From positions 8,221 through 72,220 of the forward strand of contig JAFQYM010000009.1 of the NCBI GenBank assembly GCA_017406465.1: a stretch of DNA of 64,000 nucleotides. The letters run 5' to 3'. A model generated the notes under the pieces. The model saw only the letters and a program-made list of their open reading frames with translations. It did no database searches and was not told where the DNA came from. Both the position numbers and the translations under genes were made by a program. Shown one piece after another: positions 9,616 through 34,240 of this stretch. Position 1 is the first letter of the stretch, and every line of letters starts with the position of its first letter. The DNA is from Kiritimatiellia bacterium. Lineage in GTDB: Bacteria; Verrucomicrobiota; Kiritimatiellia; RFP12; UBA1067.

Positions 9616-11343
9616 ATGAACACTAACACAAAGCTGATGGCTGCTATGATCGCGCTGGCCGGGATGTGCGGTCTTATCGGAATGACAACAATCCATGCTG
9701 CAGCGCCCGCACTGACGACGAGCCACGCCATCGCATTGACGGCAGGCGTGGCGATACTTGCCTTGATAATTACAGTGGGGCAGAGGCGGCTCTCTTCAGT
9801 GGGACTTACTGCAGCACTGTGCGTAGCCGTGCTCTGCCTCTGTTGCTTCATCGAGGAATCCGATTACGGCTTCAACCGGAAACTCGTGGCGTTCGGATGG
9901 CAAGTGATGGAACCGTCGTTCTTTATAACGCCGTCACTCGTATTGCTATTCGCATGGGCGCGGCGCAGCCATCAGGGGACGATTTTCTTTGCCACCACCA
10001 CAATCGCGGCCCTTCTCCTCGCGGTATACATGCCGAGACTTTCCGAAGCGACGCTCGTGCTTGTCCTCGCCGCCACCGTGTATGGCTTCGTTGTCCGCAT
10101 CCAGAGACACAAGCGCGTTCGTTGCCTGATTGCTGCCGCAATCGCTCTCTCGCCGTTTGTGGTCCGCGAGGTTCAGATGCAGATGTCTGGGCGCAGTTGG
10201 TTCAGCCCCAATTCGCTTATTGGCAGCTACACCGAATTTTCGTGGTACATGGTTGCCAATTCCCCGTGGATTAGGACATCGGAGCTTTCACGTACACTTC
10301 CTCCTATTGGCAGCATTAACGGAAATGTTCTCGGCTTCGCATCGTATTATTGCGGAAAGTGGACGCTCGTTACTCTCGCCTGTATCCTACCACTTCTTGC
10401 GATTTGCCTCATTGTCGCAGTTCGTCGCGCACGCACATCCTCGCAAAAGATCCTTGCCGTCGGCGGAGCGGTTGCTCTTATTGCGGAAATGATCTTGGGC
10501 GCTCTTCACTTCTTCTTCCTCATCCCACGCCACACGAGCTATGTGCCTTTCGTATCCCCGGACAACAGCTATACAGTCGCGTGTTTCGCGCTGCTTGGCC
10601 TTGTCCTCGCGACATTGCGCAAGGATTTGGGCAGCTCCGAGCGAATCAGGCACAAACGCAGATTCGACGCTATCGCATTCGGGACGATCCTTGTGGCAAT
10701 CACCATGGCCGGGGCAATGCTGCTTATTCACAACGAGTCACTTCCCCAGACAAAAATTGCCCGCAGGCTACCGGAAAGCGCGTCCGGTTTCTCATTCGAT
10801 GTCAAAAACGGCATACTGACAGACGACCTCGCAATTGTCCCTGTCAAGAAGTCCACTGGCATTGGAGAACCATCAATCGTCACTGCACTCGCGACCTTTC
10901 GTGACGGCAAGCGGATTTGGAATGAAGACATCAGCCACGAGCCGCCCATAGTCAATGCCAGATGCAGAATCCGCCCTGATGGTTGCATGGCGCTAGACTG
11001 CCGCGACCTTTATGAAGACGAATTCACACTTGTCTTCAAGCCACCGACTGGCGGCAGCACCACACCAGAATCATCAGTTACTGGCGAGCGATGGAGAATC
11101 TCCCTCGATCCGCAAGGGCACCTTGGGTGCACAAATCTCTGGACAGCCGCCCGCGTCACGCAAGCCATCTCCAAAAAACTAAACCTCGACTACGGCTTTG
11201 TCAGCAATGCGATGTCACGAGCCGACTCTCGCTACATAAAGCTGAAAATAACATCCGACCCTGACGAGGTAGCTTGCGCAAGGCGAAACCGACGCTTTTG
11301 GCGCCTCGTCATCGAAAAGGAATCTGCAATAGAGAATCAATAG
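9616..11343 (+). CDS. Polytopic membrane protein with a soluble C-terminal domain, hypothetical
   Basis: About 9-10 hydrophobic segments in the first 370 aa. RBS AAGGAGAG. No recognisable motif in the C-terminal 200 aa. Confidence 0.6.
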   Translation: MNTNTKLMAAMIALAGMCGLIGMTTIHAAAPALTTSHAIALTAGVAILALIITVGQRRLSSVGLTAALCVAVLCLCCFIEESDYGFNRKLVAFGWQVMEPSFFITPSLVLLFAWARRSHQGTIFFATTTIAALLLAVYMPRLSEATLVLVLAATVYGFVVRIQRHKRVRCLIAAAIALSPFVVREVQMQMSGRSWFSPNSLIGSYTEFSWYMVANSPWIRTSELSRTLPPIGSINGNVLGFASYYCGKWTLVTLACILPLLAICLIVAVRRARTSSQKILAVGGAVALIAEMILGALHFFFLIPRHTSYVPFVSPDNSYTVACFALLGLVLATLRKDLGSSERIRHKRRFDAIAFGTILVAITMAGAMLLIHNESLPQTKIARRLPESASGFSFDVKNGILTDDLAIVPVKKSTGIGEPSIVTALATFRDGKRIWNEDISHEPPIVNARCRIRPDGCMALDCRDLYEDEFTLVFKPPTGGSTTPESSVTGERWRISLDPQGHLGCTNLWTAARVTQAISKKLNLDYGFVSNAMSRADSRYIKLKITSDPDEVACARRNRRFWRLVIEKESAIENQ

Positions 11344-11378: not shown

Positions 11379-14348
11379 ATGAGAAAAATCATGTGCGAAG
11401 TGCAACCATTGTATTCAGAGGCCTACTCAAAAATCCTCGCTCTCGCGACTCGCTATGCAGCGGGGACTGACGACAACGTCCTCCGCCTCAAGCACCTTCT
11501 TGCGGCATTTCTCGACACTGATGCGGACATCTTTCGCGAGATACTCGGCGTCAAGCGGCTTATACGCCCGGAGAGCCTTTTATTCGAACCGAGAGAGCAA
11601 GACGGTGAGATCTTTCTCTCTTCTCAAGTCAACCGCATCCTCTCGCTGCACGGCGGGAGAATGGACGACGTCTCAGACGCGCTCGGACCCGTAATCGAGC
11701 TGGGGCTCCCGCACCTCGCGGCGGCAATGCTGATCAAACCCCGCGGCCCCGTACTCGAACTTCTCCAGCTAAATGCCATAGTGTCGGACAACGCTTCGTA
11801 CGTTGACGCCGTAATGGCCAGGGCACAAGAACTCGCCGACACGGAGTTTCAGAAGTCCTGCGCAAAGGAACGCGCAGACAGGATGAGGACGCTCAAGCAG
11901 ATAAAGACCGATCTCTCCAAAACTTGCCGCGGGCAGGACAAGGCCATCGAGGCGCTTATTGCCCATGTCGCAACAGCGATGATCGAACCGCCGTCGGCAC
12001 GAGGCTTCCGCCCCATCTCTGCGGCCTTTATTGGCGGCTCGGGAACGGGCAAGTCCATGATGGCCACGGCCTTCCGCGACGCATGGGCGCATGCGTTCGG
12101 CGGCGGAAAGCCAGACATCGTCGATATGAGCCGCTTCTCTGTCGAACAGCTCATAACTGAGATATGCGGACGCGACCCCTGCTGGAAAGACGGCGGGAAG
12201 GAAGGACAAGTCACCAGGCTCGCCGCTAAGTTCCCGCATGGCGTCATCATCCTCGAAAACATAGACAAGGCCCATCCAGGAGCCCTCGTGCCAATAGCGA
12301 ACATGCTAACCACGGGAAGGCTTGTTGATGAATTTACAGCAAAGGAGGTCTCGTTTGCAAGGAACATCGTAATCCTGACAACCAATCAGGGAACAACCTA
12401 CATCGAATCTGGGAAGTTCGCCCATCTCTGCTCGCGCAATGGCGGGACGATTCCACGGGAAAAGCTCGTCGAGGGCATAACCGCCGCGCTTGAGACGGAA
12501 ACGCCCGAGAAGGCCGGCATCCTCGCCGAAATCCTCAAGAAGGCGGACGTCCCCATCCTCTTCAAGCGCCATGACGTCCGTTCGATGTCTGCAATCATCG
12601 GCGACGCCATCGACAATACGCTCGCGCAAGTGAAGTCACTGTTCAAGGCGGAAATCGAGGCCGACCGAGAGAAGCTCATCGCCTTCTTCATCGAGACGCT
12701 CCAGAATCTTGATTCGGCGCACGGCATTGCACAGGTGATAGAGGACACCCTCGTCACGCGCCTTGAAAGGGAACTGCTGGACACGTCAGACCCAAAAGAC
12801 CTCGACGGTGCGCGAATCTCCATTGTCGTTGACGACCTTCCCGAGCTCGACATCCCGCCCGCGCTGAAATCCAATGGCGCGCTCTCGACGCTGGAGAAGC
12901 GCACGTGGGCCAGACTTCGGCAAGCACTGCAGCTCGAATACGACATCAAAGTGACCTTCGCCGACGGCGCAACTACATTGCGCATCACAAACCTCAGGCA
13001 CACTGTCATGCCGGCCATTGAAGATGCCGGCTGGTTCAGCGTCTGTCCGCCAAACACACGGCCAGAAGACCTCGTAGGGCTGGAAGCCGCATGGGCGCGC
13101 GTACGGAAGTTCCTGGCAAGCACACACAACAACAAAGCCGAGGGTTTCAAGCCCGACCACATTCTCCTGTATGGCCCCCCAGGCACAGGCAAGACCGCCT
13201 TTGCCAAGGCAATCGCCCACACGCTCAACCGCAGCTTCATCTGCGTCAATGCGGCAAAGTTCACGACATCCCGCAACGACAACCGTGCCGTCAGGTGGAT
13301 ACAGAACCTTTTCGCAACGGCGGAAAGAACGCAGTCCATAATCTTCATAGATGAATGCGACGCCATTGGCTCGCGGGAACATTCAAATGCCTCGCAGGCC
13401 CCTGTCATCAACACGCTTCTAACTCTGCTGGACGGGTTTGAGGACAGCAATGTACTCGTAATCGGCGCAACCAATCGGCCCGACATGCTCGACCCCGCCC
13501 TGACGCGCCCAGGACGCCTCCATACCCGAATCAAGGTTGATGTCCTGCGCAGCCCCGACGACCGCCTGAAGCTCATCGACATCTTCTGTCGAAAGGCAAA
13601 GCGCACTATGCCAGAAAAGCTAAAGACCCTTATCGCGCTGGCCACGGACGGATGGGCGCCGGCAAACATCCTGAGCGTCCTGCGCGAGATGTTCGACATC
13701 GCGGGCGACGAAACGCCAACGCGCCGCATGTTCGCGCAGGCCAGGAACACGGAATTTGCAGGCGAGGAAACGCAGCGCCCGCAGCTGACGGACGAGGAAA
13801 AGCTGCATGTGGCAACCCATGAGGCGGGCCACGCGCTCGTCGCCACCCTCCGCAAGCAAAACTGGTTTCAGGTAACGATAAACGGCTTTGCAGACACCCT
13901 CGGATTCCTCGAGCACCTGGACGACGGTTGCATCGGAAAATCCATGGAGAAACTCAAGGAGAAGATTGACGTCGCTCTTGCGGGGAACGCCGCAGAACGA
14001 ATTCTCGGAACGGTCTCAGAGGGGAGCAAAAGCGACTTCGTGTCCGCGACCGGCTACGCAAGGAGGATCGTCTGCGGCGGCTTCTGCGAAGGCGACGAAC
14101 TTGCCGTGACGCCAAACTTCGCCGAAGGAGGCCGTTACTGGGAGCGCATACGCCCCAAGGTAAACGCAATCCTCGCAGACCGGATGAAGATCGTGTCCTC
14201 TCTTCTCACAAAGCACAAGACCGCGCTGAAGATCGTCGCCAACGACCTCGTCCAGTGCGGGACTCTCTTCCAGGAAGACGTTGAAGCTGCACTTCACCGC
14301 AGGAGAGGCACCGTCGTCAAAGGGAAAGGAAGTCACGGCAATGAATAA
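11379..14348 (+). CDS. Chimeric soluble AAA+ protease with four domains and no transmembrane segment: Clp_N-like N-domain, ClpA/B D2-type AAA module, FtsH-type AAA module, M41 zinc-peptidase domain
   Basis: First domain: Clp_N-like LKHLLAAFL. Second: LKQIKTDLSKTCRGQDKAIEALIAHV…FIGGSGTGKSM…VIILENIDKAHPGALVPIANMLTTGRL…NIVILTTNQG, the ClpA/B D2 signature. Third: LLYGPPGTGKTAFAKAIA…IIFIDECDAIG…ATNRPDMLDPALTRPGRLHTRI, the FtsH AAA with SRH. Fourth: THEAGHALVA, the M41 HEXXH. Confidence 0.7.
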   Translation: MRKIMCEVQPLYSEAYSKILALATRYAAGTDDNVLRLKHLLAAFLDTDADIFREILGVKRLIRPESLLFEPREQDGEIFLSSQVNRILSLHGGRMDDVSDALGPVIELGLPHLAAAMLIKPRGPVLELLQLNAIVSDNASYVDAVMARAQELADTEFQKSCAKERADRMRTLKQIKTDLSKTCRGQDKAIEALIAHVATAMIEPPSARGFRPISAAFIGGSGTGKSMMATAFRDAWAHAFGGGKPDIVDMSRFSVEQLITEICGRDPCWKDGGKEGQVTRLAAKFPHGVIILENIDKAHPGALVPIANMLTTGRLVDEFTAKEVSFARNIVILTTNQGTTYIESGKFAHLCSRNGGTIPREKLVEGITAALETETPEKAGILAEILKKADVPILFKRHDVRSMSAIIGDAIDNTLAQVKSLFKAEIEADREKLIAFFIETLQNLDSAHGIAQVIEDTLVTRLERELLDTSDPKDLDGARISIVVDDLPELDIPPALKSNGALSTLEKRTWARLRQALQLEYDIKVTFADGATTLRITNLRHTVMPAIEDAGWFSVCPPNTRPEDLVGLEAAWARVRKFLASTHNNKAEGFKPDHILLYGPPGTGKTAFAKAIAHTLNRSFICVNAAKFTTSRNDNRAVRWIQNLFATAERTQSIIFIDECDAIGSREHSNASQAPVINTLLTLLDGFEDSNVLVIGATNRPDMLDPALTRPGRLHTRIKVDVLRSPDDRLKLIDIFCRKAKRTMPEKLKTLIALATDGWAPANILSVLREMFDIAGDETPTRRMFAQARNTEFAGEETQRPQLTDEEKLHVATHEAGHALVATLRKQNWFQVTINGFADTLGFLEHLDDGCIGKSMEKLKEKIDVALAGNAAERILGTVSEGSKSDFVSATGYARRIVCGGFCEGDELAVTPNFAEGGRYWERIRPKVNAILADRMKIVSSLLTKHKTALKIVANDLVQCGTLFQEDVEAALHRRRGTVVKGKGSHGNE

Positions 14349-14787
14349 AATGTGGGAACCAGAATTCGAGGACTGGTCAGAGGGCAGGGTCTTCCTGTCG
14401 TCATGCGAACTGTCGACGCAATGCTCGGCGCGGAACGAATACGGCGTCATGATGCAGGTGGGAACGGACGACAATCCGTATCCAGTGGATGCCGCGATAT
14501 TCTGGATAGACGAAATGCACCTCTATCTCCGCTATGACTGGGGTCTGTGGTACAAGATTTCCAACGACGACCCGGACAACTGCGCCAACCTCTGCAAAAG
14601 GACCTCCGCGACGCTTCTCCTATGCACAACCTCGTCAATCAAGCACCACGCAGTAAAGGTCTATCACATCGACAGACTCCCCAAAGAGCTGTTCGGGCAG
14701 GAGGAAAGTGACGCCTCAGCCGGACTCGAGGCGATCCAGCTCGACCTTGACTTTATTTCGTCGCCGGGAGACGGCGAAATCCCTTAG
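14341..14787 (+). CDS. Small hypothetical protein translationally coupled to the chimeric AAA protease
   Basis: ATG overlaps the upstream stop (aATGAATAAAATG). Trp/Cys-rich, with no known motif. Confidence 0.45.
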   Translation: MNKMWEPEFEDWSEGRVFLSSCELSTQCSARNEYGVMMQVGTDDNPYPVDAAIFWIDEMHLYLRYDWGLWYKISNDDPDNCANLCKRTSATLLLCTTSSIKHHAVKVYHIDRLPKELFGQEESDASAGLEAIQLDLDFISSPGDGEIP

Positions 14788-14921
14788 GATGCTTTTGCGC
14801 AAGAGAAGGATCCTTCGTCCAATGTCTCGCTCGTTAAACACGACAGGGCGAGCCTGCGCGGCAGCGCGAACACGCGAACGCCATTCCAGCGGAGTGGTCG
14901 AAACTGTCGTTCTGTCGCCCA

Positions 14922-17381
14922 TCAAGGAATTCCGTCGAAGTGGGTTTTAAGGAATTTGACGCGGCGCTTGGCCAAATCCGTATCGTGATCCGCGAAATAA
15001 GCCGTCATATGGGGGCTCGAGAGGATCGCTTCGAGAATACCGCTCGCATCCGCCCGCCCAGCGAGATAGTGGGCGACGAAGGCGATGAAAAGCGCCCTTT
15101 CAGACTCGTCGAAAAACGCCCCGCCGACGATGTCGTCGACAACGTTCGTCTGTCGCGCATGGGTGCGCCCGGTGCGAAGATAGCTCGCGGACGCAATATC
15201 CAGATGCCAGGGGAACGGGAAGTCAAAATCGTGATTAGAGGCGATGAGGATGTGCGTGAAGAATGCGAAGAGGTCTGCTTTCCTCTCCCAGAGCGCGGCG
15301 TGCGCCACGGCAGTATGCACCATGAGGCGCGCGAACACGGCAATCATGACAAGAATCCGCGACTCGCCGGAAAGCTGGTTGTCTATCGTGCATGGGGGCT
15401 CAGATTTGAGCTTCGCCTTGAGTTCGTCCAGGTTGTCCGGCCAGAGTTCACGCTCTACGAGCTCCGCCTTTTCGGCCTCAAGTCGGGCAATCAATCCGCT
15501 GCGCATCTCTGGCGCACACGTCCAGGTGAGATTGGCGGCGAAGGCATGCTTGACATAGCGATTGGCGTCCATGTCGTGCAGGATTTCAAGCGCCTTGGCC
15601 ATAGACATGATCCAGCGTCCGAGGCAGATATCATCTCTCGTAAAGTAGAGATCCCAGAGCACGTCTGCCTTGTCGCAGACTTCCTTGAAATCAATGCCCT
15701 TGTACGAAATCGAGCTTACGGACGGGAATGGGGTTCGCTTCGGCGCCGCAAGAGCACCGTTCTTCTTCCGCCAGTTCTGCAGCCATTCTTCGCGTTCCAC
15801 CTGAAGTCCAGAGTTCCTTTCTTCAGCGCATTTTGCTGAAAGGCCTGCAAGATATCGCACTATCCAGTCGCGGAACTGCGGCGTCTCTTCGCCGGAGAAA
15901 GGCATCCGTTCCGGCAAGACGCGCACAGCACAGCGTTCCTCGTTCAAGAATGAAACTCGAGACATCGAGGCCTTTTTGTTCCCCGTAAGCACCTTGTCCA
16001 TCACCGCGTACTGGAGTGACGCAGCCCCCTCCAGCATAAGGGTCATCAGCGCATCGCGCACACCTGTCTTGCCGACCGATCCGGGCAGATCGGAGATGTT
16101 GCCCCTGTCGAGCACGCCACGCACGAACTGCACAGTCGAGCTCGCGTCATTGAAGGCTTCGCGGCGCTGCTGTTCCGTGTACTTTGCAACGACACAGTCG
16201 CGGTTGACATCACAAGCATAGACAAGTTCACGGAAAATCGGCATAACCGCCTCCCAAAATGCAGAAGCGTTGGCGAAGCCGCTCTTGTCAAGGTAGAAGC
16301 GGCTTTCAACAGGGCGTTCGCAGACGCCGATCTCCTTTAGCAACTTCTCCTCCTCGACTTGTGCGAATTCATCAGGGCGCGAAACGACCCAGTCGTAAAT
16401 CACATTTGCCGCCTTGAGTATCTTCTTGTGCGTCCCCAGCTTGCGAAGCTTGTTCTTGATCCGCACCATGCACTGGGCCACGGACTCCAGCATAACGCGC
16501 GTCGCGGCGGCATTTGTCGAATGTGCATCCGACTCCTTGAGTATAACGTCAGAGAGAACCGCCATCGCGACCCACTGGCGCTCGAAGCGCATATGCGTCC
16601 CAGTCACGTTCGGATCCATCGCGAATTCGTGTTCACGGGCGAATGAGAGCTGCGTAAAGCGGTCGTAGTGGTAGTACTTCAGGAGCGGATTGCGCTTTCG
16701 ATAGTCGTTATGGACATTGGAGAACCCCGAGAGCGGGAGCGTGACGTCGTCGCGTTCCTCGACGTACAGCCCAAGCTCGCCTGCGGCTACCGCTCGGGCG
16801 GCAAGCGCTAGCGCGGCAATTCGGCGGAGAGCGCCCTGTTCATCAGACTTGAGCGCCTCGTAGATGCGCAACTGGAGAAAGCGGTTCATTTCCCAGTCCA
16901 TTGCCCCCCAGACGCCACCCCCAGCGCGTTCGTAGAGGAACCTCTCGAACGCTAGCCGCAGCCCATGACCACGGCTGCGGATGTCTCTCGACGACACATT
17001 CCTCTTCGCCGCAAACCAGAAATCTGGCAGAAACGCAAGTGGTTCGAAAGTGCGCGCGAACGTCGTGAATCCGTTGGGGTTCTTCCTTATCTCGCCGTCG
17101 TTCGACTTCTTCGCCCGACTCAGAATGTAGATGTCGCGAAAGACTTCATACCACCGCATCAACGCGGTTGGCCGCCCGACCGACCTCCCGCCTTTGCCCA
17201 CACATGCAATATATTCTTCATGCGCAACCTCATTGAGCACCTCCACCTCCTGCGCGAGCGCCAATCGGCCACGAGAGGACTCAAACTTCTGGAAGAACGC
17301 CGCGACCTCGTCAGGGATGCTGTCGACAATCTCCTGGAAGCGAAGATGCGGTCTGCTACGCGATTTCAAAGTTTTTCCCAT
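14922..17381 (-). CDS. Hypothetical 819-aa protein, last gene of the giant minus-strand operon
   Basis: Long clean ORF, 24 nt after the upstream gene. No recognisable motif. Confidence 0.6.
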   Translation of the reverse strand: MGKTLKSRSRPHLRFQEIVDSIPDEVAAFFQKFESSRGRLALAQEVEVLNEVAHEEYIACVGKGGRSVGRPTALMRWYEVFRDIYILSRAKKSNDGEIRKNPNGFTTFARTFEPLAFLPDFWFAAKRNVSSRDIRSRGHGLRLAFERFLYERAGGGVWGAMDWEMNRFLQLRIYEALKSDEQGALRRIAALALAARAVAAGELGLYVEERDDVTLPLSGFSNVHNDYRKRNPLLKYYHYDRFTQLSFAREHEFAMDPNVTGTHMRFERQWVAMAVLSDVILKESDAHSTNAAATRVMLESVAQCMVRIKNKLRKLGTHKKILKAANVIYDWVVSRPDEFAQVEEEKLLKEIGVCERPVESRFYLDKSGFANASAFWEAVMPIFRELVYACDVNRDCVVAKYTEQQRREAFNDASSTVQFVRGVLDRGNISDLPGSVGKTGVRDALMTLMLEGAASLQYAVMDKVLTGNKKASMSRVSFLNEERCAVRVLPERMPFSGEETPQFRDWIVRYLAGLSAKCAEERNSGLQVEREEWLQNWRKKNGALAAPKRTPFPSVSSISYKGIDFKEVCDKADVLWDLYFTRDDICLGRWIMSMAKALEILHDMDANRYVKHAFAANLTWTCAPEMRSGLIARLEAEKAELVERELWPDNLDELKAKLKSEPPCTIDNQLSGESRILVMIAVFARLMVHTAVAHAALWERKADLFAFFTHILIASNHDFDFPFPWHLDIASASYLRTGRTHARQTNVVDDIVGGAFFDESERALFIAFVAHYLAGRADASGILEAILSSPHMTAYFADHDTDLAKRRVKFLKTHFDGIP

Positions 17382-19958: not shown

Positions 19959-21986
19959 TTAGGTTTCTTTATATGTGAGTATCATTTGTGCAACGTACTG
20001 CGAAATGTTGCCATTTGACGCAACATGCTTTAGCGTGTAAAGAAGATTTGCCCAATCCTCGCAGAATGCATTCGCCTCCTGCCGCGTCTTGGCAAGGAGC
20101 AAAAATGGCGTCGCCGTTTTGTCATTATCACAGGCAAACAGCTTAAGGTCTTTCCACTCATCGCTATTGTTGCAGTACTTCTTGATACTATAGCTGAATG
20201 ACGTCACTTCCACATCCGAATGCCTCTTGCGCAGCCAATCAAACTGCGCGGACAGCACATTGCTTGTAAATGGATCGTCTTGCGTGAAGAAATCTTCCCC
20301 ACCCTTCAAAAACACATAGAACAAATTCAATCCTGGCGAAAGCCTGCAATCTTTGCGCATAGGGCTGGAATTGCCTGTAAATTGCGCATAATCTTGAATG
20401 AAAGCCGCAACGACGGCATTCGAGTTAAGCCCCTTCAATTCTCGTGCCCAATCGTTCCCATTTCCATCTTCACTCAATGACAGTTCCTTGTTCTCCAACT
20501 CGCGCCGCTTGTCATAGAACTTGAGAAATGCCAGTTCCTCCGCCCTCGCAAGCAGGGCAGATTCGTTCGTCCCCGGCGCGGGGCCACGCGAACTCCCCCT
20601 CTTGTCGGCAAAGATGGCATTGCGCAATGCCGAATTTTTCGCGCTCCATATCTTTATGATCCGCAAGAGCGCGATTCCAATGACAAGCGCAAAAGCCATG
20701 ACAATCGATAGTATGCTTACAAAACTAGTCTGGCCGAAAGCACTATTCAACTTGGCACTTTTGGCGGCGAGATATGGCACCAGCGTACAGCCGACAATCA
20801 CGACAAACATCGGCTCAAATCCCCCGCATACGACAAGCCAGTCTCCACCGGAGAGGCCAAATTTCTCCATGTGCTTCTTCTTCATCACTGCATCATGTAG
20901 CGAAACGCCAGCCAATTGACAAACTGGCGCGACAATGGTGCCTAACACAACGACAATCCAAACCAGCCAAAAACCGTTCGACAAGAAAAACGCCCTGAAT
21001 CCCTCGGCCTTCCCAAGCCAACCATCCATATACAAAACCCATAGATCGTCAAACTCTAGAACCTTCCCTGTCGCAGTGCCCACATGCCCAGCAAGCCAAT
21101 GAGAGCCAGACCAAAACAGATATGCCAAGGCCGCAGCCCCTGAGCACATAATCAAATTCATGACAAGAGCAGCAGTAAGCGCGGCCCGGAATTGCCTTCC
21201 TGCCATGATTTTATCATCCTCGGCCGACACAAGCAGATTGCCGTTTATCTTTGCAAAAGTGTACACGGCACAAATGAAGGCGACTAATGCAGCCCAAACG
21301 GTTATTCCGCCAAGATGCTCCCAAACCCCAACTGGACAACGGGCAGACAAATTCAATATGCCACTTGCAAACACCATGAGGAGCGAGCAAATCCAGACGA
21401 GCGCTTCCACTAACGAGAAATCCTTCGGAGATTTCTTCGGAAAAAGAATAATCAAAAGCAACCCCATATAATAGCCATAGCTGCGAAGCGCTTTTGCCGC
21501 TGTTTCGGATATCACGCTATTGTCAACGGCATCTTGCGCGTAATGCAAGATGAACTTCATCTCAAAGAATCTGGCAAAAAAATATCCAGTCGGCAAAGCA
21601 ATCAACCACCACTTATATTTCCAAATCTTGCGACACGTCACCTTTAGCATTATCCAAATCCATTTCGCATCCCCCTTCATCGCACCCCAAAGGAAAAGCA
21701 CTAACAGCCAAACACCCAGCAACCCAAGTGACACTATAGACGCTAGCAGCGTTCGCATGAAGACCGTGAATATCCGTTCGGCATCAATGATGGGATTGCT
21801 GTTCAGAACATCATACCCCAATGGGAGAAGCCCCCACAGAAGCGGCGCGACAATCGCGAGACAGAGCCATCCCAACCGGCTGAATGCCGCATGCCCCAGC
21901 ACCTTGATCAAGGCGCACAGATCAACTAAACCACCCCACACGTTGACACTTGGCGGCAGACGCAGCAAAGACATTTTCTTACTCAT
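19959..21986 (-). CDS. Polytopic membrane protein with a cytoplasmic C-terminal domain, hypothetical
   Basis: More than 10 hydrophobic helices. Start chosen at the Met whose ATG overlaps the phosphatase stop (ATGAGTAAG); the track start at 22022 is also possible. Confidence 0.55.
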   Translation of the reverse strand: MSKKMSLLRLPPSVNVWGGLVDLCALIKVLGHAAFSRLGWLCLAIVAPLLWGLLPLGYDVLNSNPIIDAERIFTVFMRTLLASIVSLGLLGVWLLVLFLWGAMKGDAKWIWIMLKVTCRKIWKYKWWLIALPTGYFFARFFEMKFILHYAQDAVDNSVISETAAKALRSYGYYMGLLLIILFPKKSPKDFSLVEALVWICSLLMVFASGILNLSARCPVGVWEHLGGITVWAALVAFICAVYTFAKINGNLLVSAEDDKIMAGRQFRAALTAALVMNLIMCSGAAALAYLFWSGSHWLAGHVGTATGKVLEFDDLWVLYMDGWLGKAEGFRAFFLSNGFWLVWIVVVLGTIVAPVCQLAGVSLHDAVMKKKHMEKFGLSGGDWLVVCGGFEPMFVVIVGCTLVPYLAAKSAKLNSAFGQTSFVSILSIVMAFALVIGIALLRIIKIWSAKNSALRNAIFADKRGSSRGPAPGTNESALLARAEELAFLKFYDKRRELENKELSLSEDGNGNDWARELKGLNSNAVVAAFIQDYAQFTGNSSPMRKDCRLSPGLNLFYVFLKGGEDFFTQDDPFTSNVLSAQFDWLRKRHSDVEVTSFSYSIKKYCNNSDEWKDLKLFACDNDKTATPFLLLAKTRQEANAFCEDWANLLYTLKHVASNGNISQYVAQMILTYKET

Positions 21987-22641
21987 AGATGCTCCTTTCC
22001 GTATAAGGTTCCGTGAGAACAAAATCGTTGTCGCAAGACATTTGCCCGCTACAGCTGTTCAACATTAGTGAAATATGGCAGTTCGGCAACTGTCCCATCA
22101 CGTCAAACCACCTGACATCCCAGTGATACCACCTTGCCAAGAAGCACTTGATCGCCGTGCCGTGGGAAACGATAATGATGTTTTCAGGGCAGTCGGCGCG
22201 ATCGAAGCGGCGAAACAACGAATCCATGAACAGCGCCATGCGATCATAGACATCCGCACACGATTCGCCGTCGGGGAAGCGGTAGAAGAAATATCCGAAC
22301 TGCTCACGGAAAGCTCGATTCGCATCGTTCTCGTCCGTCGGTGGCATATTGCCGTATTCCTGCTCGCGCAATTCTGGATCTTGATAGTCAAATACCGGCT
22401 CTCGCCCTATTCCCTCCAACATCGCATTCTTGGTCTGCTCCGCCCGCACATACGGCGAACTGAACACCCCGAACGCCCCATCGCCAATCAACCCCGCAAT
22501 ACGCCGCCCCGCCTCTCGCGCCTGCGCAACGCCCGTGTCCGTCAACGCAATCTTCCAATCCGGAATCTTCGCATAGACCTCATGATCTACGTTCGCTTCC
22601 GACTCGCCGTGCCGGAGAAGTATGATGCGCTTAGGGGTCAT
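21979..22641 (-). CDS. Histidine phosphatase (phosphoglycerate-mutase-like) family protein
   Basis: N-terminal LLRHGESEAN catalytic motif and a C-terminal His (SHG). ATGA overlap with the upstream gene. Confidence 0.8.
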   Translation of the reverse strand: MTPKRIILLRHGESEANVDHEVYAKIPDWKIALTDTGVAQAREAGRRIAGLIGDGAFGVFSSPYVRAEQTKNAMLEGIGREPVFDYQDPELREQEYGNMPPTDENDANRAFREQFGYFFYRFPDGESCADVYDRMALFMDSLFRRFDRADCPENIIIVSHGTAIKCFLARWYHWDVRWFDVMGQLPNCHISLMLNSCSGQMSCDNDFVLTEPYTERSIYE

Positions 22642-25600
22642 GAGGGGTTGTCTCCACCTGATTCAAGGCGCTCTATACAAATGTGAGCAATAGCCAAGAA
22701 ACACGCCGCTGCTTGGATATTATGATCATGCTTTAAATATATTTTAAAAGTATATAGACAACAAAGCGCCGTCGTAAGAGTATACATGTCCGGTGTCATT
22801 TGTTTGTCTTTGAGCGCCGCCCTCCGTATTCGTCTCAATATCTTATAAACCAACGTAAACCGTCTATCGTTGGCAATGTAATCAGGCTCATCTTCATTAA
22901 CAGAAAACATCGCGTCGCATATGTATTTTCTGAATATGCGCACAAGGCGTGCCGCATATCGCGCACTACCACCAACACCTTCATCATTCCATAGGTCATT
23001 ATCAAACAACAAACTGATCGTCGCAGAAAACATGACATTAAAATCATGTGCGATATAGTCGCGTCTTGTCCTTGCAAAATCAATCAACCACACATCCTTC
23101 TCAGGGTTGCCATTCTTCTCATCAAGCATTATATTGGCATAATTCATATCTCCGTGAATAATACCCTGCTGACAATTAAATCGTTCTCCTGTGGTATCCG
23201 CTTGTACCAATTTATCAATCCGACCTTTTTCATCAAGCACTAATTTTCCATACCCAGAGATGTTGACAACTCCATTCCGACCTCCTTTCAACAGATTCTC
23301 GATTAACGTAATTATGCATTGTTTACATCGATTATCAGGATCTCTATTGTCGGATGAATATTTAAATTTATTATCATCGCTCGTCCTATTCTGTTCATCT
23401 CCGTTATAAAACACAACGATACTTTTACTATCGGGATAGAGTCGTTCTTTAATTGACTTCAAGATTGCACCATCTAATTTAGGCTCCACCTCGCTATTCT
23501 TGACAATCGCATATAGCGTTTGCCCTGGCATCGGATGTCGATATTTAGCCACATGCTCGGCTACTACACCTTTTAAAACAACTGTAATCTTGGAATAATC
23601 ATTCACTCCTTGTTTATTCTGTATCTCGTATGCCTCAATTGCATGGCGGCCAACATCATCCTTGCACAAACCATGAAATTCAAAGGCCTTAATCTTTGGG
23701 GCCCTACGAACACAAGCCTCTTCCTGCGAAACAAAGCACTCTACATCATAATACTTTGCGATTGGCATTCGAGACAAATAGTTGCCGACAAAACCATTTT
23801 TCGACAGCACCTTTTCCCCTAATATATGGTTGGGGAAAGACGACATGGCTTTCTCAATCTCAAGATCAAATGAAATGCCATGTATCTTTGGCAATATATC
23901 GTCAAATATTGAATCAAATACACTCGCATACTTTTCATAGTCGCAACGCGCGAAAAACTTTATGTCATTAGAAAGCTTTTCTTTCATCGTTGACAAATTA
24001 TGCGAAGGGTCGTTCTTCCCCGCGAAGGAGTACACGATAGCCGAATTGTCTTTATCGACGACTTTGTTCTTCGTCTCGATTCTTCCACATTCATTTGCTA
24101 TATATGGCCGAATAAAACGGAAGTACCGTTCGAACTCGGTCATAGTATTAAATGCCGAATCAATCTTAACGATTACAGGACTTTGCAATGGTTTTTCATG
24201 GCCCTCAATTGTTTTCCATGCCTTGAATGTCACAGCGGAACTCATGCCGCCGCCCATTGGCTTGATATGTATTCTCTTTCCGGGCAGTTTCTCTAGTACT
24301 TTATAAGTGAGATACATGCGTTCCTGCTCATGTTCGCTACAAAAACTTGCACTCCGTCCAGTCTCAATGGAAAACATGTCTCGATCACACAATCCAAGCC
24401 GTCCCAATGAATCCCATTCCTTTCCCCATTTCTGAAACGAAAGCAATGAAATCATATGACGGGGCAACTTTTCAACATCCTCTTTCCTAATAAACCAATC
24501 TGCCCCAGCTGCAAACGCACGTGAAATATGCCCCATATCATCATATCTCGAATAGATGACAACAGGGATTTGCGGAAAGAACTGCTTAATATATTTTATC
24601 AATTGATACCCAGAAGGATCGTGGCCCGGGTGATCGGCAAGTCTTAGATCCAACAATACAAAATCATAAGATTTATGTGAATCACTTATTTGCCTGAACT
24701 GAGATATAGCCTGTCGAACAACGGTATTGTCACCAGGTATATCCGCCCGAACGGAGATTGGCTCAATAGCCATCACAGGTTTTGTCCTGGCCTCAATATC
24801 TTTCTTTGCATTCTCCGCATCATCATCAATTAACAATCCTGAGAATCTGATTACTGGCGAGAAATACGCGACTTGCGAACCGCCCGGTTCATAAATCACT
24901 TCCTCGCTGAATTTCTTACCACAGTCCTCGTCGTTCAAGTTGTTGCCTTTGACGAATAGACTTGATAATGACGCCATTTCACTCTCGAAAACGACTTCCC
25001 TAAGTCGCTTGAACAACGACTTACTTTCATAGCGTCTTCTCAACTGTTCCTTGTACTTTTTCCAAACACCACCCGGATCATCCTTCAGATTCTTAACATC
25101 GATTGTCCCGTCCGTTCCATGAACATCTTCATCCAGCATGCAAAACCGCCTAAATGCACCAGCCATCCAGTCTTTTATGTCTTCAGCTGACAATCCTTCT
25201 TTCAATTTCTCATCCGACCTCCACGCTTTCATGCGCAATAGCATATCCCGCACAAGGTCGACAGTCAATGCGCCATCCGTTTTATTCGCTTTTCCCTTCT
25301 CAAACCGCAGGACAAATTCATTAGGAATCGAGAAACCAGCCCCATCTATGACACGGACTCGCTTTCCATTGCCCATCGCATATTCAAAATCAACGAAGAG
25401 CGGATAAAATTTCTCAACGCCAGAAAGCTTATCTATTTCAAGAGGGCCGTACCCAAGGCCACGACAGGCCTCTTTAATAACTTCAGCAAGCTTACCAACA
25501 GTTGATGCCGCCGTAACTGGAATAATTAACAATGGCACTATAGTAGCCACCTGTCCATCATTCGTAAGGCTTGCAAAATCTTGTGCATCATATGAGTACT

Positions 25601-26225
25601 GATACACTCGGTTGCTATGTTTTTTACTTTCCGCAGCCAATTTATCAGACAACTCCTTAACTTCAGCTTCACTACTTGGTAATTTCTTCAATCTCCATTT
25701 CGCCCCCGTCTCAACATCCGTCACATTGAAGATTTCCTTACGCATTGAACTAATTGCTTGAACATCCCATTTGACGTAATCATTATTAGCTTGTTTCCAC
25801 CTAGCGAAAACTTCTTGAAAAGCATTGTCCATATCAGAGACGCCGCCAGCATCACCCCCATCTCCCCAGTGGCAAAAAACATGGACAACATTGTCATGCG
25901 TGGGCTCGCCAACGACAACTTCCGTGATATTCTTTTCGATATAATCTTTGACAAAGGTTGTCAGACAATTATCAGCAACTCTTCCAGTGCGAATTACATC
26001 TTTTAGCTCATCAACGTCAGTACTCCTCTTAAGAATGATACAAACACTATCAATATCATCACTCCATTCCACCTTAATAGAAGCAGTGTCCCCTATGCTG
26101 TCTATGAGATCATCAGCACCATCATCACTACTATCAGAATCAAAACCCGATGACGCATCATATGGCATGCCATCATAAGCGTCAAACTCATCTTGATCTT
26201 TGGCAATAAAAACGGCGATTGTCAT
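22638..26225 (-). CDS. 1195-aa multidomain protein: acidic N-terminus, response-regulator receiver (REC) domain, RIO/Kdo-like atypical protein-kinase domain
   Basis: REC: LLIDDD acidic pocket, phospho-acceptor DFVLLDLRL, PVVIYS, FIRKE. Kinase: Gly-rich PMGGGMSSAVTFKAW, VIVKID Lys, catalytic IIHGDMNYANIML, WLIDFARTR DFG-like. Low GC. Confidence 0.65.
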   Translation of the reverse strand: MTIAVFIAKDQDEFDAYDGMPYDASSGFDSDSSDDGADDLIDSIGDTASIKVEWSDDIDSVCIILKRSTDVDELKDVIRTGRVADNCLTTFVKDYIEKNITEVVVGEPTHDNVVHVFCHWGDGGDAGGVSDMDNAFQEVFARWKQANNDYVKWDVQAISSMRKEIFNVTDVETGAKWRLKKLPSSEAEVKELSDKLAAESKKHSNRVYQYSYDAQDFASLTNDGQVATIVPLLIIPVTAASTVGKLAEVIKEACRGLGYGPLEIDKLSGVEKFYPLFVDFEYAMGNGKRVRVIDGAGFSIPNEFVLRFEKGKANKTDGALTVDLVRDMLLRMKAWRSDEKLKEGLSAEDIKDWMAGAFRRFCMLDEDVHGTDGTIDVKNLKDDPGGVWKKYKEQLRRRYESKSLFKRLREVVFESEMASLSSLFVKGNNLNDEDCGKKFSEEVIYEPGGSQVAYFSPVIRFSGLLIDDDAENAKKDIEARTKPVMAIEPISVRADIPGDNTVVRQAISQFRQISDSHKSYDFVLLDLRLADHPGHDPSGYQLIKYIKQFFPQIPVVIYSRYDDMGHISRAFAAGADWFIRKEDVEKLPRHMISLLSFQKWGKEWDSLGRLGLCDRDMFSIETGRSASFCSEHEQERMYLTYKVLEKLPGKRIHIKPMGGGMSSAVTFKAWKTIEGHEKPLQSPVIVKIDSAFNTMTEFERYFRFIRPYIANECGRIETKNKVVDKDNSAIVYSFAGKNDPSHNLSTMKEKLSNDIKFFARCDYEKYASVFDSIFDDILPKIHGISFDLEIEKAMSSFPNHILGEKVLSKNGFVGNYLSRMPIAKYYDVECFVSQEEACVRRAPKIKAFEFHGLCKDDVGRHAIEAYEIQNKQGVNDYSKITVVLKGVVAEHVAKYRHPMPGQTLYAIVKNSEVEPKLDGAILKSIKERLYPDSKSIVVFYNGDEQNRTSDDNKFKYSSDNRDPDNRCKQCIITLIENLLKGGRNGVVNISGYGKLVLDEKGRIDKLVQADTTGERFNCQQGIIHGDMNYANIMLDEKNGNPEKDVWLIDFARTRRDYIAHDFNVMFSATISLLFDNDLWNDEGVGGSARYAARLVRIFRKYICDAMFSVNEDEPDYIANDRRFTLVYKILRRIRRAALKDKQMTPDMYTLTTALCCLYTFKIYLKHDHNIQAAACFLAIAHICIERLESGGDNPS

Positions 26226-34227: not shown

Positions 34228-34240
34228 CGCTTCGGTCTCC

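What the first reader, a model, noticed from the sequence alone, without database searches (positions are those of the whole stretch)
11379..14787. Soluble chimeric AAA+ protease (Clp_N + ClpA/B-D2 AAA + FtsH AAA + M41 peptidase) with a translationally coupled 149-aa partner
One 989-aa protein carries sequence hallmarks of two different AAA+ lineages.

The first ATPase module has the ClpA/B D2 signature (QDKAIEALIAHV…GGSGTGKS…IILENIDKAHPGALVPIANMLTTGRL…VILTTNQG). It is preceded by a Clp_N-like repeat (LKHLLAAFL).

The second is a classical FtsH module (LLYGPPGTGKT…IIFIDECDAIG…ATNRPDMLDPALTRPGRL). It is followed by the FtsH zinc site THEAGHALVA. There is no membrane anchor.

The downstream ORF starts inside the stop (aATGAATAAAATG), suggesting a dedicated adaptor, substrate or antitoxin-like partner. 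Such a fusion is unusual. It sits at the edge of the atypical island, convergent with the giant operon.
Basis: partly seen in the sequence, partly recalled or inferred. Interest (0 to 1): 0.65.

Follow-up and report, generated by a model that had tools for sequence, protein, structure and literature searches.

The report
Soluble two-ring Clp/FtsH hybrid protease
A gut Kiritimatiellia bacterium encodes a membrane-free relative of the FtsH zinc protease that carries an extra, apparently non-hydrolysing Clp-type ATPase ring and a dedicated small partner protein; the design is common in metagenomes, but I found no published description of it.

Summary
ORF 11379-14348 (989 aa; the conserved start is probably 11391, giving 985 aa) encodes a divergent Clp_N-like domain, a Clp-D2-type AAA+ ring (D1), a beta-rich linker, an FtsH-type AAA ring (D2) and an M41 zinc peptidase, with no membrane anchor. 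It is not a mis-assembly: 65 full-length homologues (34-98% identity) exist, and all eight partner-bearing genome loci are Kiritimatiellia MAGs, mostly from ruminant gut.

New findings:
- D1 keeps its P-loop but has lost the Walker-B Glu (Asn), the Arg finger (Lys) and the sensor-2 Arg (His).
- D2 is catalytically intact but lacks the aromatic pore-1 loop. The only invariant pore aromatic is D1 Trp269.
- A ~1,100-aa sister class keeps all canonical motifs, so this clade is derived.
- The architecture occurs in at least 81 further 50%-identity clusters, so it is not rare.
- The overlapping 148-aa ORF is the N-domain-only form of a conserved 300-370-aa partner. This form recurs in several lineages and is under purifying selection.

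Best reading: a soluble FtsH-like protease with an ATP-binding scaffold and docking ring, plus a dedicated adaptor or regulator. This is a new variant of a known kind, of moderate interest.

The parts
11379..14348 (+). Gene for the two-ring AAA+ zinc metalloprotease (989 aa from ATG 11379; the conserved start is probably ATG 11391, giving 985 aa)
   Evidence: ORF list; Pfam and NCBIfam domains; 65 full-length homologues; AF2 model with mean pLDDT 83.6; start-codon context
11406..11783 (+). N-terminal all-helical, divergent Clp_N-like double-repeat domain (aa ~10-135)
   Evidence: Family profile hits Clp N-domain structures, best 3fes at E=2e-5; 6 of 21 members hit PF02861; the single sequence gives no hit; helical with pLDDT ~90
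11874..12788 (+). D1: Clp-D2-type (HCLR clade) AAA+ module, aa ~166-470. P-loop K225 is kept. Walker B is E293-N294 instead of D-E, the Arg-finger position is K388, the sensor-2 position is H448, and the pore-loop aromatic is W269
   Evidence: PF07724; alignments to ClpE, ClpC and ClpB D2 structures; alignment with ClpC/ClpV references; family conservation counts
12813..13046 (+). Beta-rich linker between the rings (aa ~479-556), with the highly conserved segment ...TNLRHTVMP(A/S)IEDAGWFSV...
   Evidence: AF2 secondary structure; invariant columns in alignment A4; sister-class proteins match from profile position ~500 onward
13059..13748 (+). D2: classical-clade, FtsH-type AAA module (aa ~561-790). 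Walker A, Walker B (D658-E659), sensor-1 N699 and SRH arginines R710/R713 are invariant. Pore loop 1 (aa 631-636, nt 13269-13286) reads S-R-N-D-N-R, with no aromatic residue
   Evidence: PF00004; conservation counts; alignment to VAT/Cdc48, where K-[YW]-[YV]-G faces R-N-D-N; D2 alone scores 96 bits to a canonical FtsH against 77-86 to Cdc48-like proteins
13785..14303 (+). M41 zinc peptidase domain (aa ~803-975). H814-E815-A-G-H818 (nt 13818-13832), D886 (third ligand position) and E873 are invariant
   Evidence: PF01434; conservation counts; alignment with an FtsH reference; D2+M41 superposes on FtsH, AFG3L2 and YME1
14341..14787 (+). Partner gene, N-domain-only form (148 aa). A conserved all-beta N-domain (~aa 1-120) is followed by an acidic tail that carries the QLDLDF motif. 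The start overlaps the protease stop by 8 nt (ATGAATAA, 14341-14348)
   Evidence: Sequence; 70% identical to residues 3-147 of the 334-aa partner in L001; ~1.08-kb deletion relative to L001; partner-family alignment; purifying selection; acidic tail
14922..17381 (-). Convergent 819-aa orphan gene that is co-conserved with the protease-partner pair. Its function is unknown, and whether it belongs to the system is inferred, not shown
   Evidence: Present next to the pair in L001-L004, L007-L016 and L018, absent from L005/L006 and L017; 73 clusters, no Pfam domain, no PDB hit
14716..14925 (-). Small Arg-rich ORF (69 aa) that starts over the stop of the 819-aa gene. Its 3' end runs antisense to the end of the partner gene
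   Evidence: The N-terminal ~45 aa are conserved in the loci tested (40-89% identity)
9616..11343 (+). Upstream 575-aa polytopic membrane protein, 36 nt before the protease gene. It is conserved in only part of the family, so it is not core
   Evidence: ORF; Kyte-Doolittle 19-residue mean up to 3.0; present in L007-L011, absent from L001, L003, L005, L014 and L018

Best explanation
The gene encodes a soluble, FtsH-derived, ATP-dependent zinc metalloprotease. In place of a membrane anchor, a Clp_N-like domain and a Clp-D2-type AAA+ ring (D1) sit on top of the FtsH-type AAA ring (D2) and the M41 chamber.

Shown: the domain order; intact D2 ATPase motifs; an intact HEXXH + Asp zinc site; no hydrophobic anchor; loss in D1 of the Walker-B catalytic Glu (Asn), the Arg finger (Lys) and the sensor-2 Arg (His), while the P-loop Lys and a pore-loop Trp are invariant; and loss of the aromatic pore-1 loop in D2.

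Inferred: the protein forms a stacked hexamer. D1 binds ATP without hydrolysing it appreciably. In that state D1 would stabilise the hexamer, a job the membrane and periplasmic parts do in FtsH, and would provide the entry pore (Trp269) and a docking platform. D2 is the only motor and the M41 domain cleaves the substrate.

The downstream protein, whose gene is translationally coupled, is most likely a dedicated adaptor or regulatory subunit. Its conserved all-beta N-domain and acidic tail would dock on the protease, plausibly on the Clp_N-like domain, as ClpS and MecA do on ClpA and ClpC. In other lineages variable C-terminal modules are attached (a restriction-endonuclease-like fold, and YbaB/EbfC-like modules). 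These would link the protease to other, possibly DNA-associated, targets. The window's lineage keeps only the N-domain and the tail.
For: - Domains.
- Structure: confident model; D2+M41 superposes on FtsH, AFG3L2 and YME1.
- Motif counts over 66 sequences: D1 K225 66/66, N294 65/66, K388 65/66, H448 62/66, W269 66/66. D2 Walker A and B, R710, R713 and N699 are invariant. H814, E815, H818 and D886 are 66/66.
- Reference alignments place EN opposite the Clp DE, K opposite the Arg finger, H opposite the GAR arginine and W opposite the pore Tyr.
- The D2 pore loop aligns as R-N-D-N opposite K-[YW]-[YV]-G.
- The sister class with the same architecture keeps DE, R, R and K[FY][ILV]GE, so the changes are derived and lineage-specific. 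Closer relatives degrade D1 further and some lose Walker A, as expected for a ring that is not catalytic.
- No membrane anchor.
- Partner: overlapping or closely adjacent starts in L001, L003, L005, L007, L008, L018 and L019. Homology holds down to loci with ~37% protease identity. dN/dS is 0.06-0.26. The N-domain is the constant part, found alone, with a nuclease-like C-domain, or fused to a YbaB-like module.
Against: - No biochemistry exists. Hexamer formation, nucleotide binding by D1 and proteolysis are all inferred.
- A motor ring without an aromatic pore-1 loop is hard to reconcile with processive translocation (review PMC7226402), so the real mechanism may differ.
- Lys in place of the Arg finger, and Glu at the first Walker-B position, could allow some residual D1 hydrolysis.
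- No contact between the partner and the protease has been shown. The partner N-domain model is only moderately confident (pLDDT 55-70) and matched no known adaptor fold.
- The partner is reduced to a 65-aa remnant in one lineage (L017), so it is dispensable there.
- The nuclease-like and YbaB-like assignments are weak (Foldseek E=0.016; Pfam 23.6 bits, below the 25.5 cut-off).
Confidence: 0.55

Rival explanations
1. The partner is a dedicated substrate, or a switch controlled by its own degradation (antitoxin-like or anti-adaptor-like), rather than an adaptor. Its disordered acidic tail would be the entry site, and its removal or stabilisation would control something else.
For: Tight translational coupling. 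A folded domain followed by a disordered acidic tail is a typical layout for an AAA+ protease substrate. The conserved QLDxD[LF] motif in the tail could be a degron.
Against: No toxin-like gene is conserved with the pair. PADLOC hits on the protease are to generic AAA models only. The partner is lost in L017 while the protease remains. The pore loops are not basic, so nothing supports an electrostatic pull on an acidic tail.
Confidence: 0.2
2. The protease, the partner and the convergent ~820-aa gene (plus the nearby TCAD9 kinase-like, TIR and giant proteins) form a biological-conflict or defence module in which regulated proteolysis triggers or restrains an effector.
For: The ~820-aa orphan gene lies next to the pair in every retrieved locus with at least ~48% protease identity except L017. 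TCAD9-domain proteins are nearby in L001, L003, L009, L014 and the window, and a TIR_2 protein in L003. TCAD domains come from the conflict systems described in PMC7159879.
Against: No PADLOC model matches the partner, the 819-aa or the 840-aa protein. No MoxR or vWA genes were found among the ORFs I scanned. The more distant homologues sit among housekeeping genes: PEPCK in L005, and amino-acid metabolism genes in L017. G+C at the locus equals that of its flanks. All named loci are in one bacterial class, which fits vertical inheritance.
Confidence: 0.2
3. Both rings are active and the enzyme is a canonical two-ring unfoldase-protease like ClpAP. D1 would hydrolyse ATP with non-standard residues (Glu293 as the base, Lys388 as the finger).
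For: The D1 P-loop, the sensor-1 Asn (56/66) and a pore-loop aromatic (W269, 66/66) are conserved. An acidic residue remains at the first Walker-B position (E 59, D 7).
Against: Three separate catalytic positions changed together and stay fixed in the family, whereas the sister class keeps all three. Close relatives go on to lose D1 Walker A.
Confidence: 0.12
4. It is a non-proteolytic remodeller or pseudo-protease, like the plant FtsHi proteins.
For: The substrate-gripping pore loop of the ring next to the protease is lost.
Against: HEXXH, D886 and E873 are invariant across 66 sequences and in all divergent relatives examined. This differs from FtsHi-type loss of the zinc site (own knowledge).
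Confidence: 0.05
5. The fusion is an assembly or gene-calling artefact that joins a Clp-like gene to an FtsH-like gene.
For: None found.
Against: The reading frame is uninterrupted. The same architecture appears in 65 full-length homologues from ENA, Logan, JGI and NCBI assemblies, including a 99.6% identical copy in an independent MAG. The linker region is conserved and confidently modelled.
Confidence: 0.01

Closest known systems
FtsH / AFG3L2 / YME1 (membrane-anchored AAA+ M41 metalloproteases)
   Same: A classical-clade AAA module fused directly to an M41 peptidase, with HEXXH and an Asp third ligand. Walker A and B, the SRH arginines and the DGF motif are intact. The D2+M41 unit superposes with TM 0.67-0.74 at ~27% identity. 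D2 alone scores slightly higher to FtsH (96 bits) than to Cdc48-like AAA domains (77-86 bits).
   Different: There are no transmembrane helices or periplasmic domain. An extra Clp-type ring and a Clp_N-like domain precede the FtsH-type module. The pore-1 loop has no aromatic residue (RNDN). The protein scores 180 bits against the 600-bit FtsH equivalog cut-off. FtsH-like proteases are described as 'uniquely membrane-anchored' (PMC7226402).
ClpA / ClpC / ClpE with ClpP (two-ring Hsp100/Clp proteases with N-domain adaptors such as ClpS and MecA)
   Same: An N-terminal Clp_N-type domain, two stacked AAA+ modules that feed a protease, and an HCLR-clade Clp-D2-type module. The small dedicated partner parallels the adaptor proteins that bind the N-domain.
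   Different: The Clp-D2-type module comes first and there is no Clp-D1-type module. In Clp proteins the order is classical D1 then HCLR D2, and here it is reversed. The protease is a fused M41 domain rather than a separate ClpP. No IGF/L-type tripeptide aligns at the position of the ClpP-docking loop (loop alignment is approximate). The D1 catalytic residues are degenerate.
Uncharacterised AAA_2-AAA-M41 proteins of ~1,100 aa from metagenomes (P0220, P0226, P0227, P0230, P0240 and others), and the Campylobacter sp. MAG 'AAA family ATPase' MBO7369750.1
   Same: The same three-module architecture. Some share the N-domain and the beta-rich linker. One sister-class member also has a downstream gene that overlaps the protease stop codon (L021).
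   Different: The sister class keeps the canonical D1 Walker B, Arg finger and sensor 2, and an aromatic D2 pore loop. Its inter-ring region is longer. Its coupled downstream gene is unrelated to the partner family.
'FtsH ternary system' component of Kaur, Burroughs, Iyer and Aravind 2020 (PMC7159879)
   Same: The logic is similar: an inactive N-terminal AAA+ domain followed by an active FtsH-type AAA+ domain. TCAD-domain proteins lie nearby.
   Different: In that protein both AAA domains are FtsH-type, the first has lost its P-loop and Walker B, and it is linked to a MoxR-vWA gene pair. Here D1 is Clp-D2-type with an intact P-loop, and no MoxR or vWA genes were found among the neighbours I scanned.
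Type II AAA+ ATPases with one degenerate ring (NSF D2, PEX1/PEX6 D1, p97 D1)
   Same: One ring binds nucleotide and holds the hexamer together while the other does the work. This is an analogy from my own knowledge.
   Different: They belong to different clades, have no fused protease, and here the pore aromatic sits on the degenerate ring.

Membership tests
FtsH (TIGR01241 / MEROPS M41 ATP-dependent zinc metalloprotease) | N-terminal transmembrane helices flanking a periplasmic (FtsH_ext) domain | tested here: not met
   No FtsH_ext hit. The maximum Kyte-Doolittle 19-residue mean is 1.61, inside a helix of the N-domain. The N-terminus is a confident helical globular domain.
FtsH (TIGR01241 / MEROPS M41 ATP-dependent zinc metalloprotease) | Classical AAA module with Walker A, Walker B and SRH arginines, directly followed by M41 | tested here: met
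   PF00004 at 595-721 and PF01434 at 803-969; invariant motifs; superposition on FtsH, AFG3L2 and YME1.
FtsH (TIGR01241 / MEROPS M41 ATP-dependent zinc metalloprotease) | Zinc site made of HEXXH and a downstream Asp | tested here: met
   H814, E815, H818 and D886 are 66/66, and D886 aligns with the TGAxND Asp of an FtsH reference.
FtsH (TIGR01241 / MEROPS M41 ATP-dependent zinc metalloprotease) | Aromatic-hydrophobic-Gly pore-1 loop (MFVG in FtsH) | tested here: not met
   The aligned positions read R-N-D-N, and no aromatic residue occurs there in the family.
FtsH (TIGR01241 / MEROPS M41 ATP-dependent zinc metalloprotease) | Score above the NCBIfam equivalog cut-off | tested here: not met
   180 bits against a cut-off of 600 for TIGR01241, and 125 against 1008 for NF008004.
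Clp/Hsp100 class I (ClpA/B/C/E/V) | Clp_N double-repeat N-domain | tested here: inconclusive
   The window sequence alone gives no Pfam hit. The family profile gives 3fes at E=2e-5 across both repeats, and every hit is a Clp N-domain. Six of 21 members hit PF02861, best E=2.4e-4. No fold search of the isolated domain was possible.
Clp/Hsp100 class I (ClpA/B/C/E/V) | Classical-clade D1 followed by HCLR-clade D2 | tested here: not met
   The only Clp-type module is D2-like and comes first. The second module is FtsH-type.
Clp/Hsp100 class I (ClpA/B/C/E/V) | Catalytic D2 residues: Walker B D-E, the Arg finger, and the GAR sensor 2 | tested here: not met
   E-N, K388 and H448 occupy the aligned positions.
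Uncharacterised AAA_2-AAA-M41 superfamily (metagenomic) | Pfam AAA_2, then AAA, then Peptidase_M41 in one polypeptide without FtsH_ext | tested here: met
   The window protein and P0219, P0220, P0222, P0226, P0229 and P0298. 81 of 143 further representatives have a Clp-D2-like ring plus HEXXH.
FtsH ternary conflict system (Kaur et al. 2020) | Adjacent MoxR-type AAA+ and vWA genes | tested here: not met
   No MoxR or vWA domain in the ORFs scanned between 2 and 36 kb, or in the precomputed Pfam lists of the related loci.
FtsH ternary conflict system (Kaur et al. 2020) | Two FtsH-type AAA domains, the first lacking its P-loop and Walker B | tested here: not met
   D1 is Clp-D2-type with an invariant P-loop; family description.
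Toxin-antitoxin pair | A small labile antitoxin coupled to a toxin with a recognisable toxic domain | tested here: not met
   No toxin domain in either gene. The partner is lost in L017 while the protease remains.

The most novel reading that the evidence does not exclude
This clade could be a natural AAA+ protease that does not use the canonical mechanism. Its only hydrolysing ring (D2) has no aromatic pore-1 loop, and its only aromatic pore loop (Trp269) sits on a ring that cannot hydrolyse ATP. Force generated in D2 would then have to reach the substrate through rigid-body movement of D1. Alternatively, the enzyme may not unfold substrates at all, and may instead be a gated, partner-licensed endoprotease. 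The partner N-domain would be the licensing subunit, and in sister lineages it would tether the machine to DNA-associated modules (nuclease-like fold, YbaB/EbfC-like). That would make it a proteolysis system directed at the nucleoid.
Probability: 0.15. Interest if true: 0.75.

Novelty: new variant of a known kind. Interest (0 to 1): 0.5.

Why it matters
FtsH-type proteases are textbook membrane enzymes. In Clp proteins the classical-clade ring always comes before the HCLR-clade ring. This family breaks both rules. It also offers a natural experiment with a built-in control. The sister class keeps canonical motifs in both rings. This clade has switched off hydrolysis in the upper ring and removed the gripping loop from the lower one, yet it keeps the zinc site and stays under selection together with a dedicated partner.

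Studying it could show how much of the 'aromatic pore loop on the hydrolysing ring' rule is really required. It could also show how a soluble FtsH assembles without a membrane, and how a new adaptor family plugs into a Clp_N-like domain.

In practical terms, it gives a working hypothesis for three orphan protein families: the protease, the partner and the ~820-aa neighbour. Every member with a named organism comes from Kiritimatiellia, mostly from ruminant gut.

Tried and rejected
- Charge match between the partner's acidic tail and the axial channel. The pore loops are not basic (mean net charge -0.55 for D1 and +0.36 for D2), so I dropped the idea.
- Promoter and terminator scan of 9.3-15.2 kb. 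It found fewer sites than in shuffled sequence, so it says nothing.
- PADLOC. Only generic AAA models (IetA, TRIP13) match the protease, and nothing matches the partner or the neighbours. This gives no support for a known defence system.
- Pfam and NCBIfam on the partner (window form and three full-length forms), the 819-aa and the 840-aa proteins. No hits.
- PDB sequence search with the 819-aa protein. Nothing.
- Foldseek of the partner model against the PDB. No hit at E<=0.001. The weak hits share a restriction-endonuclease-like theme (EndoMS, MspJI, Cap4, Cas4-like), probably from the confident C-domain, which the window lacks. The hit table gives no query coordinates. Nothing was found for the N-domain.
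- The upstream 575-aa membrane protein as a membrane anchor supplied in trans. It is conserved in only part of the family, so it is not core.
- Pseudogene reading of the 148-aa ORF. Rejected because N-only forms with three different endpoints occur in diverged lineages and dN/dS is 0.06-0.26.
- Literature searches found no description of a Clp-D2-type + FtsH-type + M41 protein. The library covers open-access papers only, so absence of a description is not proven.
- Organism names for the wider superfamily. Almost all members are unnamed metagenomic sequences.

Full report
OBSERVATION. The window has an uninterrupted 989-codon ORF at 11379-14348 on the + strand. Pfam places AAA_2 (PF07724) at residues 213-347 (E=1e-20), AAA (PF00004) at 595-721 (1e-38) and Peptidase_M41 (PF01434) at 803-969 (3e-16). 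NCBIfam aligns residues 166-470 to the D2 portion of ClpV, ClpA and ClpB, and residues 575-967 to FtsH. The FtsH score is only 180 bits against a 600-bit equivalog cut-off. The second ORF starts at ATG 14341 inside ...GGC AAT GAA TAA, so it overlaps the stop codon by 8 nt. It is 148 codons long, not 149. Homologues begin at the position of the second ATG (11391), which gives 985 aa.

Clp_N is not detectable on this sequence alone, even at E<=10. A profile of 21 family N-domains does hit Clp N-domain structures and nothing else. The best hit is 3fes at E=2e-5, covering both repeats, and all 47 hits are ClpC, ClpA, ClpB or Hsp104 N-domains. Six of the 21 members hit PF02861 on their own. The AlphaFold model of the whole protein has a mean pLDDT of 83.6 and shows an all-helical N-domain with pLDDT around 90. 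No segment looks like a membrane anchor: the highest 19-residue Kyte-Doolittle mean is 1.61, inside an N-domain helix.

NOT AN ARTEFACT, AND WHO CARRIES IT. A search of about 5.8 billion proteins returned a family with the same architecture at 34-98% identity, and 65 of these are full-length. Sources name them only 'AAA family ATPase [Kiritimatiellae bacterium]' or 'ATP-dependent Zn protease'. A scan of one genome per GTDB species with the partner profile found eight loci. All are in Kiritimatiellia MAGs, and most record titles name ruminant gut sources such as goat ileum, sheep rectum and colon, and rumen. One of them (JAZSLQ010000253.1) encodes a protease 99.6% identical to the window's. Recurrence across independent assemblies, together with a conserved and confidently modelled inter-ring region, excludes a mis-assembly.

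ANATOMY OF THE TWO RINGS. D1 aligns only to Clp/Hsp100 D2 rings in the PDB (ClpE, ClpC, ClpB, ClpA; E about 1e-15 to 1e-13). In those alignments, and in an alignment with ClpC and ClpV references, four substitutions stand out:
- The Clp Walker B '(L/F)DE(I/V)(E/D)KAHP' faces 'LENIDKAHP'.
- The Arg finger ('NRID') faces 'KKAD'.
- The sensor-2 'GARP' faces 'SAHG'.
- The pore-loop Tyr ('PGYVG') faces Trp ('PCWKD').

Over 66 family sequences these positions are N294 65/66, K388 65/66, H448 62/66 and W269 66/66. The P-loop Lys225 is 66/66 and the sensor-1 Asn is 56/66.

D2 keeps an invariant Walker A, the D658-E659 Walker B, N699, R710, R713 and the DGF motif. Its pore-1 loop is different. K-[Y/W]-[Y/V]-G in VAT and Cdc48, and MFVG in FtsH, align with R-N-D-N here, and no aromatic residue occurs there anywhere in the family.

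The M41 site is intact: H814, E815, H818, the third-ligand D886 and E873 are all 66/66. The D2+M41 half of the model superposes on FtsH, AFG3L2 and YME1 structures, with TM 0.67-0.74 normalised to the target and ~27% identity over ~440 columns. Taken alone, D2 scores 96 bits to a canonical FtsH and 77-86 bits to Cdc48-like AAA domains. It is FtsH-type, by a modest margin.

A BUILT-IN CONTROL: THE WIDER SUPERFAMILY. An exhaustive HMMER search with the family profile over 1.84 billion representatives found further full-length relatives. It also found a class of about 1,100 aa that Pfam annotates as AAA_2 + AAA + Peptidase_M41. Of the 143 additional top representatives, 81 combine a Clp-D2-like ring with HEXXH, and 26 also match the N-domain. 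One such cluster comes from Campylobacter sp. MAGs and is also called 'AAA family ATPase'.

So the fusion is not rare in sequence space, although I found no paper that describes it (open-access library only). The sister class keeps the D1 Walker B D-E, the Arg finger, the sensor-2 Arg and a canonical D2 pore loop K-[F/Y]-[I/L/V]-G-E. The window's clade has E-N, K, H and R-N-D-N. Intermediate relatives have gone further: some have lost D1 Walker A and carry a 7-residue deletion of the D2 pore loop. The degeneration of D1 and the loss of the D2 gripping loop are therefore derived, lineage-specific and tolerated. That is what one expects if D1 is no longer an ATPase.

THE PARTNER. In homologues at 80%, 66%, 48% and 37% protease identity, and in the more distant P0222, the gene that overlaps or abuts the protease stop is 300-370 aa long. 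It is homologous to the window's 148-aa ORF. The family has 47 clusters and no annotation or Pfam domain. Its alignment shows three parts: a strongly conserved ~120-aa N-domain, an acidic variable linker (29% D+E against 7% K+R) containing a QLDxD[LF] motif, and a more variable C-domain.

The AlphaFold model is confident for the C-domain (pLDDT ~90) and moderate for the all-beta N-domain (55-70). Foldseek gave only weak hits, and they share a restriction-endonuclease-like theme: EndoMS at probability 0.96 and E=0.016, then MspJI, Cap4 and a Cas4-like protein. The hit table gives no query coordinates, so assigning these hits to the C-domain is my inference.

Relative to L001, the window lacks about 1.08 kb. 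The missing stretch holds the C-domain and a following ~124-aa gene, which is a borderline YbaB/EbfC-like match (E=5.8e-5, 23.6 bits against a 25.5 cut-off). This is not a decaying fragment, for two reasons. First, N-domain-only forms with three different acidic endings occur in diverged lineages, including L014 where the protease is only 70% identical. Second, dN/dS is 0.06 for window versus L007 and 0.22 for window versus L012, the same range as between two full-length forms.

In L018 the N-domain is fused to a module resembling the ~125-aa small protein of L003. In L017 only a 65-aa remnant is left. The N-domain plus acidic tail is thus the constant module, and the C-terminal modules, possibly DNA-associated, are interchangeable. 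The sister class also has a downstream gene overlapping the stop codon, but it is unrelated to this partner family.

NEIGHBOURHOOD. The convergent 819-aa gene (14922-17381) is next to the pair in every retrieved locus except L005/L006 and L017. It belongs to a third orphan family of 73 clusters with no Pfam or PDB hit. A 69-aa Arg-rich ORF overlaps its stop codon and is conserved over its first ~45 residues. TCAD9-domain (kinase-like) proteins are often nearby, including the window's 1195-aa TCAD9 + receiver protein at 22638-26225.

This suggests a conflict system, but several things argue against it. PADLOC is silent. No MoxR-vWA pair is present, so this is not the 'FtsH ternary system' of Kaur et al., whose protein has two FtsH-type AAA domains and a first domain without a P-loop. 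Distant homologues sit among housekeeping genes. G+C at the locus (0.55-0.59) matches the flanks, and the low-G+C island starts near 23 kb.

MECHANISM. The domains, the motif states, the absence of an anchor, the coupling, and the co-conservation and selection on the partner are shown. The rest is inferred: a stacked hexamer in which D1 binds but does not appreciably hydrolyse ATP. D1 would thereby hold the ring together, as degenerate rings do in NSF, PEX1/6 and p97 (own knowledge), taking the place of FtsH's membrane tether. It would also present the entry pore (Trp269) and, with the Clp_N-like domain, a docking surface. D2 would be the only motor and M41 would cut. The partner would most likely be an adaptor or regulator that docks through its N-domain and tail, by analogy with ClpS on ClpA, MecA on ClpC, and the SspB layout of a beta-domain plus a flexible tail (own knowledge).

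The weak point is the missing aromatic pore loop on the only active ring. Reviews treat this loop as a near-universal requirement for translocation. Either D2's movement is passed to the substrate through D1's Trp loops, or the enzyme does not unfold substrates processively.

VERDICT. The additions are the degenerate D1, the non-canonical D2 pore, the true nature of the partner, the co-conserved 820-aa gene, and the fact that the architecture is widespread in sequence space but, as far as I could find, undescribed. It is a new variant of a known kind (AAA+ proteases). Interest is moderate (0.5): it is attractive to AAA+ specialists because nature supplies both the 'canonical' and the 'degenerate' versions, but everything beyond the sequence-level facts is untested.

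Noticed in passing
window 14922-17381 (-): An 819-aa orphan protein lies convergent to the partner gene. It is co-conserved with the protease-partner pair in nearly all related loci. Its family has 73 clusters, all hypothetical, with no Pfam, NCBIfam, PADLOC or PDB match.
   Followed up: partly
window 14716-14925 (-): A small Arg-rich ORF (69 aa) starts over the stop codon of the 819-aa gene. Its first ~45 residues (MGD.TTVSTTPLEWRSRVR..AQARPVVF.ERD.GRR) are conserved in the loci tested at 40-89% identity. Its 3' end is antisense to the partner's 3' end and differs on either side of the deletion junction.
   Followed up: partly
window 22638-31258 (-), low-G+C stretch (0.37-0.45): Two giant genes lie here. 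One encodes 1195 aa with TCAD9 (kinase-like, overlapping APH and EcKL hits) plus a response-regulator receiver domain. The other encodes 1678 aa with no Pfam hit. A His_Phos_1 phosphatase (21979-22641) and unannotated 687-aa and 840-aa ORFs follow downstream of them on the minus strand. Together they look like an uncharacterised signalling or conflict operon.
   Followed up: partly
L001 10951-12352; L003 10948-12297; L018 3582-4550; L019 8813-10268: Full-length partners carry a C-domain for which a restriction-endonuclease-like fold is weakly suggested. They are followed by, or in L018 fused to, a ~125-aa module that is a borderline YbaB/EbfC-like match. This whole module is absent from the window's lineage.
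   Followed up: partly
window 9616-11343 (+): A 575-aa polytopic membrane protein with no Pfam domain (faint FtsW-like hit, E=0.004) ends 36 nt before the protease gene. It is conserved upstream of the protease in only some lineages (L007-L011).
   Followed up: partly
proteins P0221, P0223, P0228, P0232, P0236, P0239, P0246, P0253: Metagenomes contain many multi-ring FtsH relatives. Some have FtsH_ext plus two or three classical AAA modules plus M41. Others, of 1,500-2,100 aa, have four or five tandem AAA modules and no HEXXH motif.
   Followed up: no
window 32845-34374 (-): A YhcG-type PDDEXK nuclease (DUF1016_N + YhcG_C + DUF4357) sits at the far edge of the low-G+C region, next to a periplasmic-binding-protein gene and ABC-transporter ATPase genes.
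   Followed up: no
L001 2338-3324; L021 10538-11326: A reverse-transcriptase (RVT_1) gene lies near the protease locus in L001. A phage-type integrase plus an HTH_17 gene lies just downstream of the sister-class locus L021. These hint that some versions sit near mobile elements.
   Followed up: no
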